Virus record (IMG/VR): IMGVR_UViG_2721755725_000012 | Source: a virus | Lineage: Duplodnaviria > Heunggongvirae > Uroviricota > Caudoviricetes | Strand: one strand, 5' to 3' | Length of the DNA stretch: 49,338 nt | Part shown: positions 36,001 to 42,000 of the stretch, in pieces | How the letters are laid out: the number at the start of each line of letters is the position of its first letter | Position numbering within the stretch: position 1 is the stretch's first letter | Made by a program: the position numbers

Positions 36001-39000
36001 CTATGACGGTTAAACAGATGACGATCTGAACCGCCCCGGAAATCCTGGAGACTAAACTCCCTGAGAAAGAGGTAAACAGGATGACTAAAAATACTCGTTT
36101 TTCCCCCGAAGTCCGTCAGCGGGCGATTCGTATGGTTCTGGAAAGTCAGGATGAATATGACTCACAGTGGGCGGCAATTTGTTCCATTGCCCCAAAGATT
36201 GGCTGTACGCCGGAGACTCTGCGTGTCTGGGTTCGCCAGCATGAGCGGGATACCGGGGGCGGTGATGGTGGGCTCACCAGCGCTGAACGTCAGCGTCTGA
36301 AAGAGCTGGAACGTGAAAATCGTGAACTGCGCCGCAGTAACGATATCCTTCGCCAGGCTTCCGCTTATTTTGCGAAGGCGGAGTTCGACCGCCTCTGGAA
36401 AAAATGATGCCACTGCTGGATAAGCTGCGTGAGCAGTACGGGGTCGGACCGGTATGCAGCGAACTGCATATTGCCCCGTCAACGTATTACCATTGTCAGC
36501 AACAGCGACATCATCCGGATAAACGCAGTGCCCGTGCGCAGCACGACGACTGGCTGAAGAGAGAGATACAGCGCGTATACGATGAAAATCATCAGGTGTA
36601 CGGTGTGCGTAAAGTCTGGCGTCAGTTGTTACGGGAAGGAATCAGGGTGGCCAGATGTACAGTGGCACGTCTCATGGCGGTTATGGGACTTGCCGGTGTT
36701 CTCCGGGGTAAAAAGGTCCGTACGACCATCAGCCGGAAAGCCGTTGCCGCAGGCGACCGCGTAAACCGTCAGTTCGTGGCAGAACGACCTGACCAGCTGT
36801 GGGTGGCTGATTTTACTTACGTCAGCACATGGCAGGGCTTCGTCTATGTGGCGTTTATCATTGATGTGTTTGCCGGATACATCGTGGGGTGGCGGGTCTC
36901 ATCGTCTATGGAAACGACATTCGTGCTGGATGCGCTGGAGCAGGCGTTGTGGGCCCGTCGTCCGTCTGGCACCATCCATCACAGCGATAAAGGCTCTCAG
37001 TATGTGTCACTGGCCTATACGGAGCGACTAAAAGAAGCCGGATTACTGGCATCAACAGGGAGTACAGGCGACTCGTATGACAACGCGATGGCTGAGAGCA
37101 TCAATGGTCTTTACAAAGCGGAGGTAATACACCGTAAGAGCTGGAAAAACCGTGCAGAAGTGGAACTGGCCACACTAACGTGGGTGGACTGGTATAACAA
37201 TCGACGATTGCTGGGAAGGCTGGGCCATACTCCTCCGGCAGAAGCAGAAAAAGCTTATTATGCTTCCATCGGAAACGATGATCTGGCAGCCTGAGTTCAC
37301 AGATAAAACACTCTCCAGGAAACCCGGGGCGGTTCAATCAGGGCGATTAACATCGCCTTTTGCTGCTTCATAGCCTGCTTCTCCTTGCCTTTCGGCACGT
37401 AAGAGGCTAACCTACATGTGCAAAGCATGAAATTGGCCTCAGATTAATGTTAAGCGTCTTGCCGGACGCGTAATGTTAACTGGGGCTTTTCTCTATCTGC
37501 CTTTTGGTGTTCATGCCTGAGGCAGATAGCCTCAAGCACCCGCAGCAATTCTAACTATCCAATAGATCAATGCCAACTTCTTTTCCTGCAACATCTCTCA
37601 TCAGAAGTGACCCAAATTCATCCAATCAGCACAAAAGAAACATTTAAAGCGTGAATGCTACCGAACGTTCATTTCAATTACATCGTTTTGATTTTTAACA
37701 GTTTTCACCTCAACAAATCAAATGGCATTAGCATTCATCATGGAAGAAAGACTGATAAAAATGATCATTTTCAATGACTTATGATCACACCGGGTATTGC
37801 CAAGTCATTCCTTTTACGCCAGGATACCCACAAGTGAGTAGTCGAGGAGAGTTTGCCAATTTTTGCGATATAAATTTCAATGTCCGAAGAACCATTAATT
37901 GTTAATTGATTCTGTATAAGGTATTAACATGACAATTTCATATATTCCTATTCTGAAAGCGAAACGTTCTGAGTTATCAGCTTTATCGCAGCTATCCATT
38001 GAAAAGAAATCAAAAATTTTGCCATTACTCGAAATTGAACCAGTGCCAATTGACCCTGATTCAGGTATTGCCTTAAAGAGTTATAACGAGACTCTTATAG
38101 AGTTCGGAAAGAAAGTCTCAAAATCTTGCTCAGATATGCAAGGTGTTTATATTGATGGATTATTAATTGAAGAGCATTTTATTTCTCCTGAAGATCATTA
38201 CCCTATAATAAATGCGGTTAATCAAGTTAGAGATATGGAGATAAGAGTTATTCCTGTCAGTTCACCAACTCGCCCATCTAACTATAAAAGAGCGATTGAT
38301 GAATTAATGCAGAATGAAATATGCTTGAGATTAACCACGTTAGATCTGGTTAACCCACAATTAATAACGCATTACATTAATCATCTGGGAATTCCTTTAT
38401 CAAATATTGATATAATTATTGACTTAAGAGATGAGTTAACCGAGGATAAAATTAATTCCGGCGAACTATATACTTTGGCAATGGGATTGATAAACAATCT
38501 GGCGCACCTCAATGAATACAGAAAAGTGATTCTTTCTGGGGGTTCATTTCCTACAGATCTCAGTGATATTTCTGTTGGTCTATATTCTCAACCTCGAATC
38601 GAGTGGATTTTATGGCAGAGTTTAATGAATAGAAAAGAACTTGCCAGAAATGTGATTTATAGTGATTATGGAGTACAGCACCCCGACTTTAATAGGCTTT
38701 CGACGCGATTCCCTAGCGTATCTGCCAGCGTCAGATACTCTGGAGATAATGACTTTTGGGTATTTCGAGGAAGAGTAGCTAATCGCTTTGGTTATGAACA
38801 ATATGGTAAACATAGTGAGGATATTCTTGCTCATCGAGAATATTCAGGGCCTACATTCTGTGCGGGAGATAGAGACATAGAATATTATGCAAACGAGTAT
38901 CAAGCCTACAAAGCCAATCCCTCTGGTAACTATAAATTTGGTAGCCCAGAGGTATGGCGTAGGATTGGGCAAAACCATCACATAACTAAGGTTGTTGAGC

Positions 39001-42000
39001 AACTCGCCACTCTTTACGGGCTTTAAGTTTAACTCGAACAGCTTCACGAAGCTCGCCAACATCCATACTATTGGCGAGTTTTGACCATAAGACGCGTTTA
39101 GGTTTATTTTTCAAATTCTGTAGCTCCCCTACATCACTTAATAGGGAAAGCAATTCATCTTTCCAAAGAAGCATTGTTAAGGAAAGTTTGTCCACTTGTG
39201 GATTCAACTTGCTAGTTCGAATTGTTTTTAAATGGATACCTTGCCGTGCACCTTGCGTAACTTGCTTTATCCCCCACCATGATGGAACTATGCTTAAAGC
39301 ATCATAAAGATGGCAATCAGAGACAACCAAAGTTACTTTATCCATCACTGATGAGTAATGTTGCACCTGCGCTGGTAATCTGAGCAAGTTATCACTCTTG
39401 CTCTTCAACTCATAACCATGTATAAGCCCATTGATCACTGCTATATCAGCTCTGCTAGCCCCTAGATTCATCGTAAACTCATCAATGATTAGGGTGTCAG
39501 GATCTTTATGATGATCTCTCAGAATCTTGGCATGCACAGCCTTTCTTACATCAATGTCTCTCATACCATAGTTGCGCTTTCATCGACTCTCTCAAGCCAT
39601 GATTCTATATCATGGTTCGCATGAATGCCATTTGATATGACCAGTGGTTAAACATTGCACAGAAAAGTGGATGTGTATTTTAACAAAAGCAATGACGGCT
39701 AACCATGTTGGTATGTCGATAAAATGTTTCAACGTAAGCATTATCTGTTCCGCCCTTTCAGACGGCCTCCTGATGTTCTGAGGGTGCAGAATCCCTCCGG
39801 TTAAGGGTTTAATAAAAATCGTTTCTGATTTAAATCTTCAGTATTTAGTTGTTAGTCGGTTTATAGCCTTTATGCTTCGGCCTTATTTCTCAGCCATACA
39901 CAAACCGGGCCATCTTCGGTGTCATGTATTGAACCAATAAACCATCCATTGCCCTCTGGTCGTTCCGGTTCCCATGCAGAAATATCAGCATCACACGCAT
40001 CAAGGTCAGCACATCCTTCATCTCTGAAGCAGAGGACGTATTGAAGATTATTTTCCTCCATCCAGGCGTTAAACTCTTCCGTTGAAATATATTCCCGACC
40101 GTCACAGAATTTTTCATATTCAGGATGCGTCCAGCAGCCATATTCATCACGTACTACTGGTATTTCTTTAATTTCATTCATTTCTGTTCTCCCACGTTTT
40201 CAGACTTTCACCACAGAACGGACAAAATGAAACCCGAACTGGTAATTTAGAAAATTCACCGGAACGCAACATCACAAAATCAGGACCGCGAGTTAAACTC
40301 TCATTCCAGATTTTGTATATCAGCAGACCTTTTCGCATCGTGTATTCAGCATCATGCTCAAGGGACTTTGCCAGTGCTGCACATGGTTCTATCTTGTTGC
40401 CATTAACCTGGCATTTTGATTCACTCACCGCACCACCTCCTCAAAATTCCCCTGATAAAACGCCAGTACGCGCTGCATAACTTCGCTCTTCCGGCACTCG
40501 AGACAGATTATGTTCAGACGCCTGTCGTAGCGACGTATTTCTCCGTCAGGTAATGACCAGATAAGGTCCGGATCAACCGCAGATGGTTTCTTCAGCTTTG
40601 CCCTTGAGAGCTTTTTACGGGCATTTTGCCAGTCCTTACGCGCCTGTTCAGACGGGAATAACCCGTAACCAGAGTTGTATACATCGCCACTGGCAACCAG
40701 CTCTCTGGCCAGAACGCTCATCAGATATCTTGTTGCCCCAGTTTTAGTTTCCAGTTGTCGTAACGTCTCGCGCCCACTCTGGCGTACGAGTTCAACAACC
40801 TGCCCTTTAATTTTCTCCTGCTCTTCTTGTGTAAAAACTTTTGCCACAAGCCCTCCTGAAAATTACCTCATGACCAGAAATTAACACTTACCCCCTGAAG
40901 CCCGGCGGAATTTCAGTGTCCGGTTCAGAAATGTGATTCACGCAACGCTGCGCAGGCGAACGCCCCAGGCGGATAACCAGTTCATCCCATTTTTCCCGGA
41001 GTTTTGCCGGACTCATGATGTTTTTTACCCAGAACGAATCCCGCTGGAGACGCCCAAACATTTCACAAATTTGTCTGTGAGTTCTGCCATCCAGCATCCG
41101 CATTGTGCGAACGTCATTGGCCCATGCTGTCCAGTTGGGTTCTTTCGGTCTAGTGATCTCGCCATCATCGCTGGCCGCCTGCTCGTAAAGACTCACGATT
41201 CGTCCCCAGATCCACTGTGCGCACACCAAATCTTCCTGACTTCCCCACTGGCGTTTTTTCGCACTGAACACAACCGCGTCAGGGTGTCGGGTTAAAAAAT
41301 CCTGTTCAGCCGTCTGCGGGTCCGGTTGCGAAGCGTCCGGACAAGAAGATCTTTTATCTGACGGATCAGGTTTTAATACTGACGGATCGGGGTCAATCAT
41401 CGCCCCCCTAATCGGCAGTTTTTTATCAACAGTTGATCCATCAAAATTTGACGGGTCAACCGTTGAGGGGTCAATATTTGACGGGTCAACTGTTAACGGG
41501 TCATTTTTTGCCGGGCTAATTTTTCTTTTCGGTTTATATGACTCACGCGCCGCCGCAGCAGCTGCTTCGAGTTTTTCCACATTAAGCCGATAGATATTGC
41601 TTACATTACGCCCACCGACCTTACGCTCTTCCTTCGTCAGCCAGCCCTCTTTCGCCAGTTCTGCAATAGCCGATTTCACTGTGGATTCACTTCTTGCACC
41701 GATCTGACGCCGGATAGTTTCAATGGCAGGCCATGACACGCCCTCGTCATTGCTGTAGTCTGCAAGACGGGCCATAACCGCCACCCTGGATAAGATCATG
41801 CCGGTGAAGGCGCACCCTTCCCAGACAAGACCATGAAGCTTGCTGCTCATAAAACCCCCGAACACCGTGCTTTTAGTGCATCACCACAGCATTCCCTGCC
41901 GGGCCGCCGCGATTCATCTGGTCATACAAAACAACCGCTGACGCAACAAAATCATCGACATCCTTCACCAGCCGATCCCTCCGTTCGACGATCTCACGGT

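What the first reader, a model, noticed from the sequence alone, without database searches (positions are those of the whole stretch)
37929..39564. AT-rich convergent two-gene cargo module: candidate uncharacterised defence-type system
A 365-aa protein (+) and a 192-aa protein (-) sit in a stretch that is visibly AT-rich (about one third GC in sampled 50-nt stretches, against more than half in the prophage backbone). That suggests separate horizontal acquisition into the nin-like region between the replication genes and hok/rusA/Q. The 192-aa protein has an E / D / ExK arrangement (IIDEF...RADIAV...GYELKSK) typical of PD-(D/E)xK nucleases. The 365-aa protein has no motif I can assign; I have an unverified recollection that such pairs correspond to the uncharacterised Beta-protein / sce7725 and sce7726 families. 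The genes converge and their 3' ends overlap by 41 nt, which would let each transcript act as antisense to the other. No function is known to me for this pair.
Basis: partly seen in the sequence, partly recalled or inferred. Interest (0 to 1): 0.85.

Follow-up and report, generated by a model that had tools for sequence, protein, structure and literature searches.

The report
Two-gene P4 beta/cII-like prophage module
An AT-rich insert in an E. coli prophage carries a TIM-barrel "beta" protein gene and a nuclease-like gene facing each other with overlapping ends; this is the stripped-down core of two known but mechanistically unexplained anti-phage systems (P4 gop-beta-cII and PD-lambda-2), and the same overlapping layout is kept across many bacterial phyla.

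Summary
ORFs 37929-39026(+) and 38986-39564(-) exist, overlap by 41 nt, and form the lowest-GC stretch of the window (0.38 vs 0.52). The 365-aa protein is a full-length Pfam Beta_protein member with a confident TIM-barrel model. The 192-aa protein is an NCBIfam sce7726 member with a PD-(D/E)xK fold and invariant E29/D40/E52/K54. RefSeq already names both. They are homologues of satellite phage P4 beta and cII, which also converge. Beta is closer to PD-lambda-2 component C.

The window lacks gop, HigB and the Xre-M78 peptidase, so it meets neither published system definition. It is a two-gene variant.

New here: beta and sce7726 are the conserved core of the family. In all 76 genome loci that could be tested, and in 78 of 80 viral contigs, they lie adjacent and convergent. 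Their 3' ends overlap in a fixed antisense frame (length = 2 mod 3 in 75 of 77 genome loci). The accessory genes vary.

Most likely this is a prophage-borne anti-phage or superinfection-exclusion module with the nuclease as effector, but that is untested. I rate it a new variant of a known kind, of moderate interest.

The parts
37929..39026 (+). beta family gene (365 aa). Predicted TIM barrel followed by C-terminal helices.
38986..39564 (-). sce7726 family gene (192 aa), a homologue of P4 cII. N-terminal PD-(D/E)xK nuclease-fold domain plus a C-terminal helical region.
38986..39026 (.). 41-nt dual-coding overlap of the two 3' ends. The antisense phase pairs codon positions 1-1, 2-3 and 3-2.
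   Evidence: Coordinates. Sequence read codon by codon. Conserved beta T353 and L359 and conserved sce7726 K181, R183 and W186 are all encoded within 38985-39024. Overlap length = 2 mod 3 in 75 of 77 genome loci and in nearly all viral contigs.
39602..39631 (-). Promoter-like site (ATGGCA-18-TAGAAT) about 38 nt upstream of the sce7726 start codon. Candidate only.
   Evidence: Consensus scan, 9 of 12 matches. The number of such sites in the region is no higher than in shuffles (8 found vs 7.8 expected), so the evidence is weak.
39047..39087 (+). Hairpin (13-bp stem, 11-nt loop) followed by a short U-run, 21 nt past the beta stop codon and inside the sce7726 coding sequence. Weak candidate terminator for the beta transcript.
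   Evidence: RNA fold of 38961-39110(+), z = -2.1. It was not found by the terminator scan because the loop exceeds 8 nt. If it is used, the beta mRNA would be antisense to about 100 nt of sce7726.
37580..37928 (+). AT-rich non-coding leader upstream of beta, between the hok/sok promoter region and the beta ATG. It presumably holds the beta promoter.
   Evidence: No ORF of 60 aa or more. No plus-strand promoter-like site scoring 9 of 12 or better. Not conserved in other genera. GC 0.34-0.38. The role is inferred, not shown.

Best explanation
The locus is a minimal two-gene member of the beta/cII module family. Its experimentally tested relatives are the P4 satellite system gop-beta-cII and PD-lambda-2. 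It is carried as low-GC cargo (a moron) in the nin-like region of a lambdoid prophage of E. coli O111/O26.

Shown here: one gene encodes a TIM-barrel protein whose charged residues at strand ends stay near-invariant at about 27% identity. The other encodes a PD-(D/E)xK-fold protein with a fully conserved E-D-ExK site. The two are inherited together as a convergent pair with overlapping, dual-coding 3' ends across many phyla. Toxin or regulator partners (HigB + Xre-M78 peptidase, gop, an unnamed ~200-aa protein) are optional additions upstream of beta.

Inferred: the module protects the lysogen against other phages. The sce7726 nuclease would be the effector that cuts nucleic acid. Beta would be the partner that controls or licenses it, either by sensing infection or by acting enzymatically on a small molecule or nucleic acid. 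Because there is no room for a terminator between the genes, each transcript must run antisense into the other gene. This would couple or mutually limit their expression.

My confidence by level: about 0.97 that this is the beta/cII homologue pair, about 0.55 that it is an anti-phage module, and about 0.3 for the specific division of labour.
For: Family assignments.

Homology and shared convergent layout with P4 beta and cII.

Experimental defence by relatives: gop-beta-cII against lambda and P1 (PMC9122126). Cell death by gop-beta-cII is triggered by phage orf184 (bioRxiv 10.1101/2023.04.06.535777). [quoted passage not shown]

Nuclease fold and invariant catalytic residues.

TIM barrel and invariant polar residues.

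Strict pairing: all 76 beta loci with enough sequence have a convergent sce7726, and 78 of 80 sce7726 viral contigs have a convergent beta.

Fixed overlap phase.

The same layout occurs in Gordonia phage Powerball next to its integrase and a HicAB pair.

Two-gene loci sit among terminase, Rz, Rha, integrase, resolvase, IS21, primase and BrxL genes, with no recurrent third gene.

Low GC in the window, and in 60 of 70 other loci.

The sequence is identical in 93 complete E. coli genomes.

No intrinsic terminator lies between the genes.
Against: No phenotype exists for any two-gene beta + sce7726 locus. In both tested relatives the toxic component is a different protein (gop, or the Xre-M78 peptidase PD-lambda-2B), and neither is present in the window.

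PD-lambda-2 defends without sce7726. The E. coli PD-lambda-2-type locus has none in any frame, and the published clone extends only 396 nt past beta. The nuclease is therefore not needed for every beta-based defence.

sce7726 stays intact where beta is interrupted, frameshifted or replaced (L104, L122, L120). This argues against a simple model in which beta is the antidote to a constitutively toxic nuclease.

The TIM-barrel matches are generic, so no activity can be assigned to beta.

The promoter and terminator calls are at chance level. No expression data exist, so antisense coupling is unproven.
Confidence: 0.55

Rival explanations
1. Addiction or stabilisation module. The pair behaves as a toxin-antitoxin-like cassette, with the nuclease as toxin and beta or the antisense transcript as antidote. 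It would mainly stabilise the prophage or mobile element rather than block other phages.
For: P4 beta neutralises a toxic partner (Ghisotti 1990, as cited in PMC9122126). Vassallo et al. class PD-lambda-2 as TA-like. The pair sits next to hok/sok in the window and next to HicAB in Gordonia phage Powerball. Convergent overlapping transcripts resemble antisense-controlled TA loci.
Against: An intact sce7726 persists beside a broken or replaced beta in three viral contigs, which a lethal unneutralised toxin should not allow. Many TA-like loci are themselves defence systems, so this rival overlaps the main explanation. No toxicity data exist.
Confidence: 0.15
2. Restriction-modification-like pair. 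Beta would be an enzyme that modifies DNA or a nucleotide, for example a base-exchange reaction like the TIM-barrel transglycosylases. sce7726 would cut nucleic acid that lacks the mark.
Confidence: 0.1
3. A function of the phage itself. The nuclease would be a recombination, repair or lysogeny-control factor of the nin region, comparable to RusA or NinG, read through from the early-right operon. Beta would be its modulator.
For: sce7726 has the same orientation as the replication-to-Q operon, and RusA lies nearby. One database source names a homologue 'DNA repair protein MmcB-like'. The best structural match is SPO1766, which I recall belongs to the MmcB-like family. P4 cII was named for a lysogeny-related phenotype; this too is my recollection, and the 1990 paper could not be read.
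Against: The pair occurs far outside phages, in Patescibacteria, Nitrospirae, Acidobacteriota, Myxococcota and other phyla. There it is usually fused into an operon with HigB and an Xre-M78 peptidase. It is dispensable cargo, present in only 93 of 5426 complete E. coli genomes. Its flanks are not conserved between genera.
Confidence: 0.1
4. Inactive remnant. The two genes would be what is left of a larger system after its toxin or regulator genes were lost, with no present function.
For: The window lacks gop, HigB and the M78 peptidase. An IS1203 copy lies close by.
Against: Both ORFs are full length with every invariant residue intact. The IS interrupts hok, not the module, and the IS-free O26 version has no extra gene either. 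Two-gene-only loci form the whole subfamily with 30% or more identity to the window's beta, spanning Enterobacterales, Aeromonas and Bacillota. That pattern fits a stable architecture, not sporadic decay.
Confidence: 0.05

Closest known systems
P4 satellite gop-beta-cII (PADLOC/DefenseFinder 'gop_beta_cll'; Rousset et al. 2022, PMC9122126)
   Same: It contains a beta-family protein and an sce7726-family protein (P4 cII scores 151 bits on sce7726_fam). The two genes converge. The E-D-ExK block is conserved in cII. It is low-GC cargo on a mobile element (0.356 vs 0.522). It is carried in a hotspot for anti-phage genes.
   Different: There is no gop anywhere in the window. Identity is only 23% for beta and 28% for cII. 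The P4-type PADLOC 'beta' model matches only the N-terminus, at E=1.5e-4. P4 cII has an extra C-terminal region of about 80 aa. In P4 the genes do not overlap: there is a 27-nt gap with an annotated terminator.
PD-lambda-2 (Vassallo et al. 2022, PMC9519451): HigB-like A, Xre-M78 peptidase B, beta-like C
   Same: The window's beta is closest to component C (PADLOC PD-Lambda-2_C, E=1.4e-40, full length). Component C is required for anti-lambda defence.
   Different: Components A and B are absent from the window. PD-lambda-2 as found in E. coli has no sce7726 gene. The toxic component of PD-lambda-2 is the peptidase B, which has no counterpart here.
Four-gene HigB / Xre-M78 peptidase / beta / convergent sce7726 loci (found here in 36 genomes; I found no paper that describes them)
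   Same: They have the same beta-sce7726 core, the same convergent overlap and the same antisense phase. The modal overlap is 50 nt.
   Different: They carry a HigB_toxin gene (PF09907, E=7.5e-27) and an HTH_3 + Peptidase_M78 gene upstream, in an operon with beta. Their beta is only 25-30% identical to the window's.
PD-(D/E)xK nucleases of defence and repair (MmcB-like SPO1766 3dnx, Can2, NucS, Cap4, type II restriction endonucleases)
   Different: There is no sequence-level match to any solved structure. There is no CARF/SAVED or other sensor domain. sce7726 has its own C-terminal helical region. It is always paired with a TIM-barrel gene.

Membership tests
Pfam Beta_protein (PF14350) / NCBI 'beta family protein' | Full-length profile match above the curated cutoff | tested here: met
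   177.4 bits against a cutoff of 27, residues 5-356 of 365. RefSeq names the identical protein WP_000156210.1 'beta family protein'.
NCBIfam sce7726_fam (NF033832) | Profile match above the curated cutoff of 70 bits | tested here: met
   191.1 bits, positions 1-184. P4 cII (151 bits) and a Sorangium homologue (167 bits) also pass.
NCBIfam sce7725_fam (NF033831) | Profile match above the curated cutoff of 60 bits | tested here: not met
   12.3 bits, and only residues 5-39. Six other beta homologues, including the Sorangium one, also fail. The 365-aa protein is not an sce7725 member.
gop-beta-cII system | gop gene (toxic component) directly upstream of beta | tested here: not met
   No PADLOC gop hit among the neighbouring genes. 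tblastn of P4 gop against the whole window gives a best E of 0.11. Only 40-43-aa ORFs lie between sok and beta.
gop-beta-cII system | beta component | tested here: inconclusive
   The superfamily is the same (Pfam) and the BLASTP alignment to P4 beta is full length (E=1e-8, 23% identity). However, the P4-type PADLOC model matches only the N-terminus, at E=1.5e-4.
gop-beta-cII system | cII component, convergent with beta | tested here: met
   PADLOC 'cll' E=2.4e-28. BLASTP to P4 cII E=2e-17. The genes converge in both P4 and the window.
gop-beta-cII system | Protection against phages (lambda, P1) | not testable with these tools
   This needs plaque assays. It is reported only for the three-gene P4 locus (PMC9122126).
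PD-lambda-2 system | Component A (HigB-like) | tested here: not met
   tblastn with three HigB-like queries against the window gives a best E of 0.18.
PD-lambda-2 system | Component B (Xre HTH + M78/ImmA-IrrE peptidase) | tested here: not met
   tblastn with three queries gives a best E of 0.018 over 97 aa, inside an unrelated tail-region ORF.
PD-lambda-2 system | Component C (beta-like) | tested here: met
   PADLOC PD-Lambda-2_C E=1.4e-40, residues 4-362.
PD-(D/E)xK nuclease superfamily | Restriction-endonuclease-like alpha/beta core fold | tested here: met
PD-(D/E)xK nuclease superfamily | Catalytic D...(D/E)xK residues on consecutive strands, plus an upstream acidic residue | tested here: met
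   E29 lies on strand 25-32, D40 on strand 37-44, and E52 and K54 on strand 48-54. All four are conserved in 78 of 78 homologues.
PD-(D/E)xK nuclease superfamily | Metal-dependent nuclease activity | not testable with these tools
   This needs biochemistry.
Restriction-modification systems | A recognisable modification enzyme (methyltransferase or other DNA-modifying enzyme) paired with the nuclease | tested here: inconclusive

The most novel reading that the evidence does not exclude
Beta + sce7726 is the ancestral, self-sufficient core of a very widespread immune module. The sce7726 family alone has 5,383 cluster representatives at 50% identity, and the pair is found from Enterobacterales to Patescibacteria and actinophages. 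In this reading a TIM-barrel enzyme and a PD-(D/E)xK nuclease are held together by obligately overlapping convergent genes, and their antisense 3' overlap acts as the regulatory switch. The published three-gene systems (gop-beta-cII, PD-lambda-2) would then be this core, or half of it, with toxin modules bolted on. The roles assigned so far, such as 'beta is an antitoxin', would describe the add-ons and not the core mechanism.
Probability: 0.3. Interest if true: 0.7.

Novelty: new variant of a known kind. Interest (0 to 1): 0.5.

Why it matters
Both gop-beta-cII and PD-lambda-2 are accepted anti-phage systems with no known mechanism. Neither the beta nor the cII/sce7726 family has a solved structure detectable by sequence or an assigned activity. 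The shared invariant unit appears to be a TIM-barrel protein plus an intact PD-(D/E)xK nuclease. A natural two-gene version without any extra toxin exists in a well-studied host, in EHEC O111/O26 prophages and phage Rac-SA53. This gives the simplest available handle for working out what beta and cII do.

The conserved overlap is also unusual in its own right. Two convergent genes share a dual-coding 3' end in one fixed antisense frame from Proteobacteria to Actinobacteria phages and candidate-phyla bacteria. That makes it a clean test case for whether 3' antisense overlap is a selected regulatory device.

On the practical side, current PADLOC models for these systems need three genes. They would therefore miss this two-gene form and the fourth gene of the HigB/M78/beta/sce7726 loci.

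Tried and rejected
- **sce7725 membership of the 365-aa protein: rejected.** It scores 12 bits against a cutoff of 60, and no beta homologue tested passes.
- **A third gene destroyed by the IS: rejected.** IS1203 splits hok from its sok leader. The IS-free O26 prophage has hokD, then 558 bp, then beta, with no extra ORF.
- **gop, HigB or M78 peptidase elsewhere in the window: none**.
- **Sequence matches to solved structures: none.** This holds for single sequences and for profiles.
- **Fused domains in longer sce7726 homologues: none** in eight proteins.
- **Promoter and terminator scans:** site counts equal the shuffle expectation. The hairpin after beta has z of only -2.1. I list these as candidates only.
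- **Literature on the two-gene form:** searches for sce7726, sce7725, PF14350, 'beta family protein', the two WP accessions and Rac-SA53 found only genome-annotation mentions. One apparent hit, the PanDA preprint, concerns an unrelated '2TM-beta' protein. The 1990 P4 paper on gop, beta and cII could not be retrieved.
- **The ECOR42 PD-lambda-2 contig itself is not in the collections.** I used the equivalent E. coli locus NZ_CP123310 instead.

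
Full report
**1. The observation**

They share 41 nt at their 3' ends. A sliding GC profile drops from 0.50-0.57 to 0.34-0.42 between about 37500 and 39900. The module's GC is 0.383 against 0.522 for the window. Only 1.5% of equally long windows are as low, and the eight lowest all overlap it.

The window is 100% identical here to a lambdoid prophage of E. 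coli O111:H- 11128 and related O111/O26 strains. 93 of 5,426 complete E. coli genomes carry at least 80% of a 2.6-kb query around the module.

The RefSeq annotation of these prophages confirms the position. In phage orientation, replication-type genes (HTH-domain protein, DUF977) come first. Then come two small genes, sce7726, beta (opposite strand), hok/sok, DUF968, RusA and a DUF1133 protein that I read as the Q-like antiterminator.

The IS3-family element IS1203 just left of the module has inserted between the hok coding sequence and its sok/leader region. The sok RNA is at 37366-37541 (119.8 bits). In the IS-free O26 version, 558 bp separate hokD from beta and no further gene is present. 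The IS has therefore not removed a partner gene.

blastn against the same pair in Samsonia, Cedecea, Xenorhabdus, Phytobacter, Photorhabdus, Rahnella and Aeromonas finds similarity starting at 37926-37936 and stopping at 39564. The conserved unit is the two ORFs and nothing else.

**2. What the two proteins are**

*The 365-aa protein.* It is a full-length member of Pfam Beta_protein (E=7e-52) and of phrog_9159. In PADLOC it matches PD-Lambda-2_C (E=1.4e-40), and the P4-type 'beta' model only weakly. It fails sce7725_fam (12 bits against 60).

Across 80 homologues with a median identity of 27% to the window protein, the following residues stay at least 93% conserved: Y5, P7, K10, K12, E15, D76, R134, D161, D165, R223, R240, D246, Y270, W343, H350 and H351. 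Several of these sit at the C-terminal ends of predicted strands, which is the usual site of a TIM-barrel active site or ligand pocket. That last step is inference.

E29, D40, E52 and K54 lie on three consecutive strands and are conserved in 78 of 78 homologues, together with R38, D58, R62 and Q66.

Neither family matches any solved structure by sequence, whether as a single sequence or as a profile.

**3. Relation to known systems**

Satellite phage P4 carries gop (247-648, +), beta (651-1718, +) and cII (1746-2540, -). RefSeq labels P4 beta 'beta family protein' and P4 cII 'sce7726 family protein'. The window proteins align to them over essentially their whole length, at 23% identity (E=1e-8) for beta and 28% (E=2e-17) for cII. 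The beta/cII pair converges in P4 as it does here.

- gop-beta-cII protects E. coli against lambda and P1. [quoted passage not shown]
- Its cell-killing activity is triggered by phage gene orf184 (bioRxiv 10.1101/2023.04.06.535777).
- PD-lambda-2 consists of a HigB-like protein, a toxic Xre-peptidase fusion and a beta-like protein. The beta-like protein is not needed to neutralise the toxin but is needed for defence (PMC9519451).

The window has no gop, HigB-like or M78 peptidase gene anywhere. It therefore fits neither published definition. The Rac-SA53 phage record, which carries the same pair at 99.5% identity, already notes 'beta' and 'CII phage-like protein'. The homology is thus known to annotators, although I found no paper that discusses the two-gene form.

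**4. The pair is a conserved core with a fixed overlapping layout**

*Starting from beta.* A scan of one genome per species with the beta alignment gave 78 loci. They come from Enterobacterales, Aeromonas, Bacillota, Bacteroidota, Nitrospirae, Acidobacteriota, Chloroflexota, Planctomycetota, Myxococcota (including Sorangium), Gemmatimonadota, Actinomycetes and many Patescibacteria. In 76 of them an sce7726 homologue lies immediately downstream of beta, on the opposite strand. The two exceptions end at a contig edge about 100 nt or less after beta.

*Starting from sce7726.* In the reverse direction, 78 of 80 viral contigs have a convergent beta. The remaining cases are an interrupted beta, a frameshifted beta and one replacement by kinase-like and PP2C-like genes. 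Many of these contigs are near-identical E. coli prophages, so the independent count is smaller. Even so, about ten different overlap lengths occur.

*The overlap.* The 3' ends overlap in all the genome loci except P4. Lengths run from 8 to 140 nt, with 50 nt in 30 loci and 41 nt in the window. In 75 of 77 loci the length is 2 mod 3. The viral set shows the same pattern (11, 20, 32, 35, 38, 41, 44, 56, 59 nt).

That phase pairs codon positions 1-1, 2-3 and 3-2. Reading the window sequence codon by codon shows that conserved residues of both proteins are specified by the same bases, 38985-39024. These are beta T353 and L359, and sce7726 K181, R183 and W186. The overlap is therefore ancestral and truly dual-coding, not a local accident.

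*An actinophage example.* Gordonia phage Powerball has the same arrangement. Gene 33 is beta (E=9e-56). Gene 32, annotated 'exonuclease', is sce7726 (E=3e-67). They overlap by 89 nt, again 2 mod 3, and lie beside the integrase and a HicAB pair.

*Family size.* The sce7726 family has 5,383 representatives of 50%-identity clusters at E of 1e-3 or better, and 1,253 at 1e-30 or better.

**5. Accessory genes vary**

Clustering the neighbours and scanning them against Pfam gives these architectures:

| Genes upstream of beta | Loci | Notes |
|---|---|---|
| HigB_toxin + HTH_3/Peptidase_M78, in an operon with beta | 36 | PD-lambda-2 A and B, plus the convergent sce7726 as an undescribed fourth gene |
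| M78 peptidase + unnamed ~200-aa protein | 10 | The ~200-aa protein has no Pfam match |
| A peptidase-cluster ORF only | 8 | Three of these are cut at a contig end; in several others the clustered ORF is not directly upstream of beta |
| None | 26 | Includes the window; also P4 (which has gop) and one contig-cut locus |

The two-gene loci include every beta that is 30% or more identical to the window's (Enterobacterales, Aeromonas, Bacillota). They therefore form a subfamily and are not scattered losses.

Their flanks hold terminases, Rz, Rha, integrases, resolvases, IS21, primases and BrxL. No third family recurs.

Conversely, the E. coli PD-lambda-2-type locus (HigB, ImmA/IrrE, 377-aa beta) has no sce7726 in any frame. 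The published PD-lambda-2 clone extends only 396 nt past beta. Beta can therefore work in a defence system without the nuclease.

**6. How it most likely works**

*Shown:* the pair's identity, folds, conserved catalytic-type residues, strict linkage, overlap, mobile low-GC context and homology to two experimentally validated defence systems.

*Inferred:*
- The two-gene module defends the lysogen against other phages.
- sce7726 is the nucleic-acid-cutting effector.
- Beta is its controlling or licensing partner, through sensing or through an enzymatic activity.
- No terminator separates the genes. The only candidate is a weak hairpin at 39047-39087, inside sce7726 (z = -2.1). Each transcript must therefore extend antisense into the other gene, which would tie their expression together.

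*Against a simple model in which beta is the antidote to the nuclease:* sce7726 persists intact beside broken or missing beta genes. In both tested relatives the toxic protein is something else.

*Rivals, with my estimates:* a stabilisation/TA role (0.15), an R-M-like modify-and-cut pair (0.10), a phage recombination or lysogeny function (0.10) and an inactive remnant (0.05).

**7. Verdict**

The locus is not an unknown kind of system. It is a two-gene variant of the beta/cII family, already named in RefSeq.

This analysis adds three things:
- Beta + sce7726, in a convergent, phase-locked, overlapping arrangement, is the conserved core of that family across many phyla.
- Beta is a TIM barrel with an enzyme-like set of invariant residues.
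- The published systems are this core, or half of it, with different toxin modules attached.

Function and mechanism remain untested. I rate the novelty as a new variant of a known kind and the interest at 0.5.

Noticed in passing
window 35903-37541: IS1203 (IS3 family) has ORFs at 36081-36407 and 36404-37294, with an ALIL frameshift pseudoknot at 36362-36478. It lies between the hok coding sequence (about 35903-36043, minus strand, shortened to 141 nt) and the sok antitoxin RNA/leader (37366-37541, minus strand, 119.8 bits). The hok/sok locus of this prophage is therefore split. The O26 version has an intact 156-nt hokD and no IS.
   Followed up: partly
L018, L021-L025, L027-L031 and others (36 loci); e.g. 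L022 4474-7663: A four-gene arrangement recurs in Patescibacteria, Nitrospirae, Bacteroidota, Acidobacteriota and other phyla: HigB_toxin, then HTH + Peptidase_M78, then beta, then a convergent sce7726, often with an overlap of exactly 50 nt. It looks like PD-lambda-2 plus a fourth gene that the published three-gene definition does not include.
   Followed up: partly
L048 5375-5980, L070 5372-5983, L057, L074, L075, L078, L080 and others (10 loci): An unnamed ~200-aa protein family lies between the M78 peptidase gene and beta. Its N-terminus reads MKLLVD(T/S)DAFCKL. It takes the place of HigB in these loci. It has no Pfam match.
   Followed up: no
L120 4001-5810 (IMG/VR contig UViG_2684622845_000002): An intact sce7726 gene sits next to phage lysis genes, but where beta should be there are a protein-kinase-like ORF (165 aa) and a PP2C-phosphatase-like ORF (241 aa), in tandem rather than convergent. 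This may be a partner swap.
   Followed up: no
L163 2938-4750 (Gordonia phage Powerball MN234218, genes 33 and 32); also phage DumpsterDude: Actinobacteriophages carry the same beta/sce7726 pair, convergent with an 89-nt overlap, beside the integrase and a HicAB toxin-antitoxin pair. Gene 32 is annotated 'exonuclease' and gene 33 'hypothetical protein'.
   Followed up: yes
L082 3898-8447 (E. coli AREA_C483, NZ_CP123310): In the E. coli PD-lambda-2-type locus (HigB, ImmA/IrrE, beta), the gene that converges on beta is a 548-aa DUF6119 protein instead of sce7726. Remnants of a His-Xaa-Ser system and IS3 copies lie nearby.
   Followed up: no
window 35813-35894 (-): A weak match to the isrK Hfq-binding sRNA model (27.8 bits, below the gathering score of 50, E=0.004), close to the hok coding sequence.
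   Followed up: no
window 41873-42298 and 43184-43900 region (from the annotation of the identical O111 prophage, L002 10574-12259): The same prophage carries further small toxin-type cargo: a YdaT-family toxin gene next to the cro-like regulator, and a RelB/RelE pair in the immunity region. The prophage thus holds several TA or defence-type morons besides the beta/sce7726 pair.
   Followed up: no
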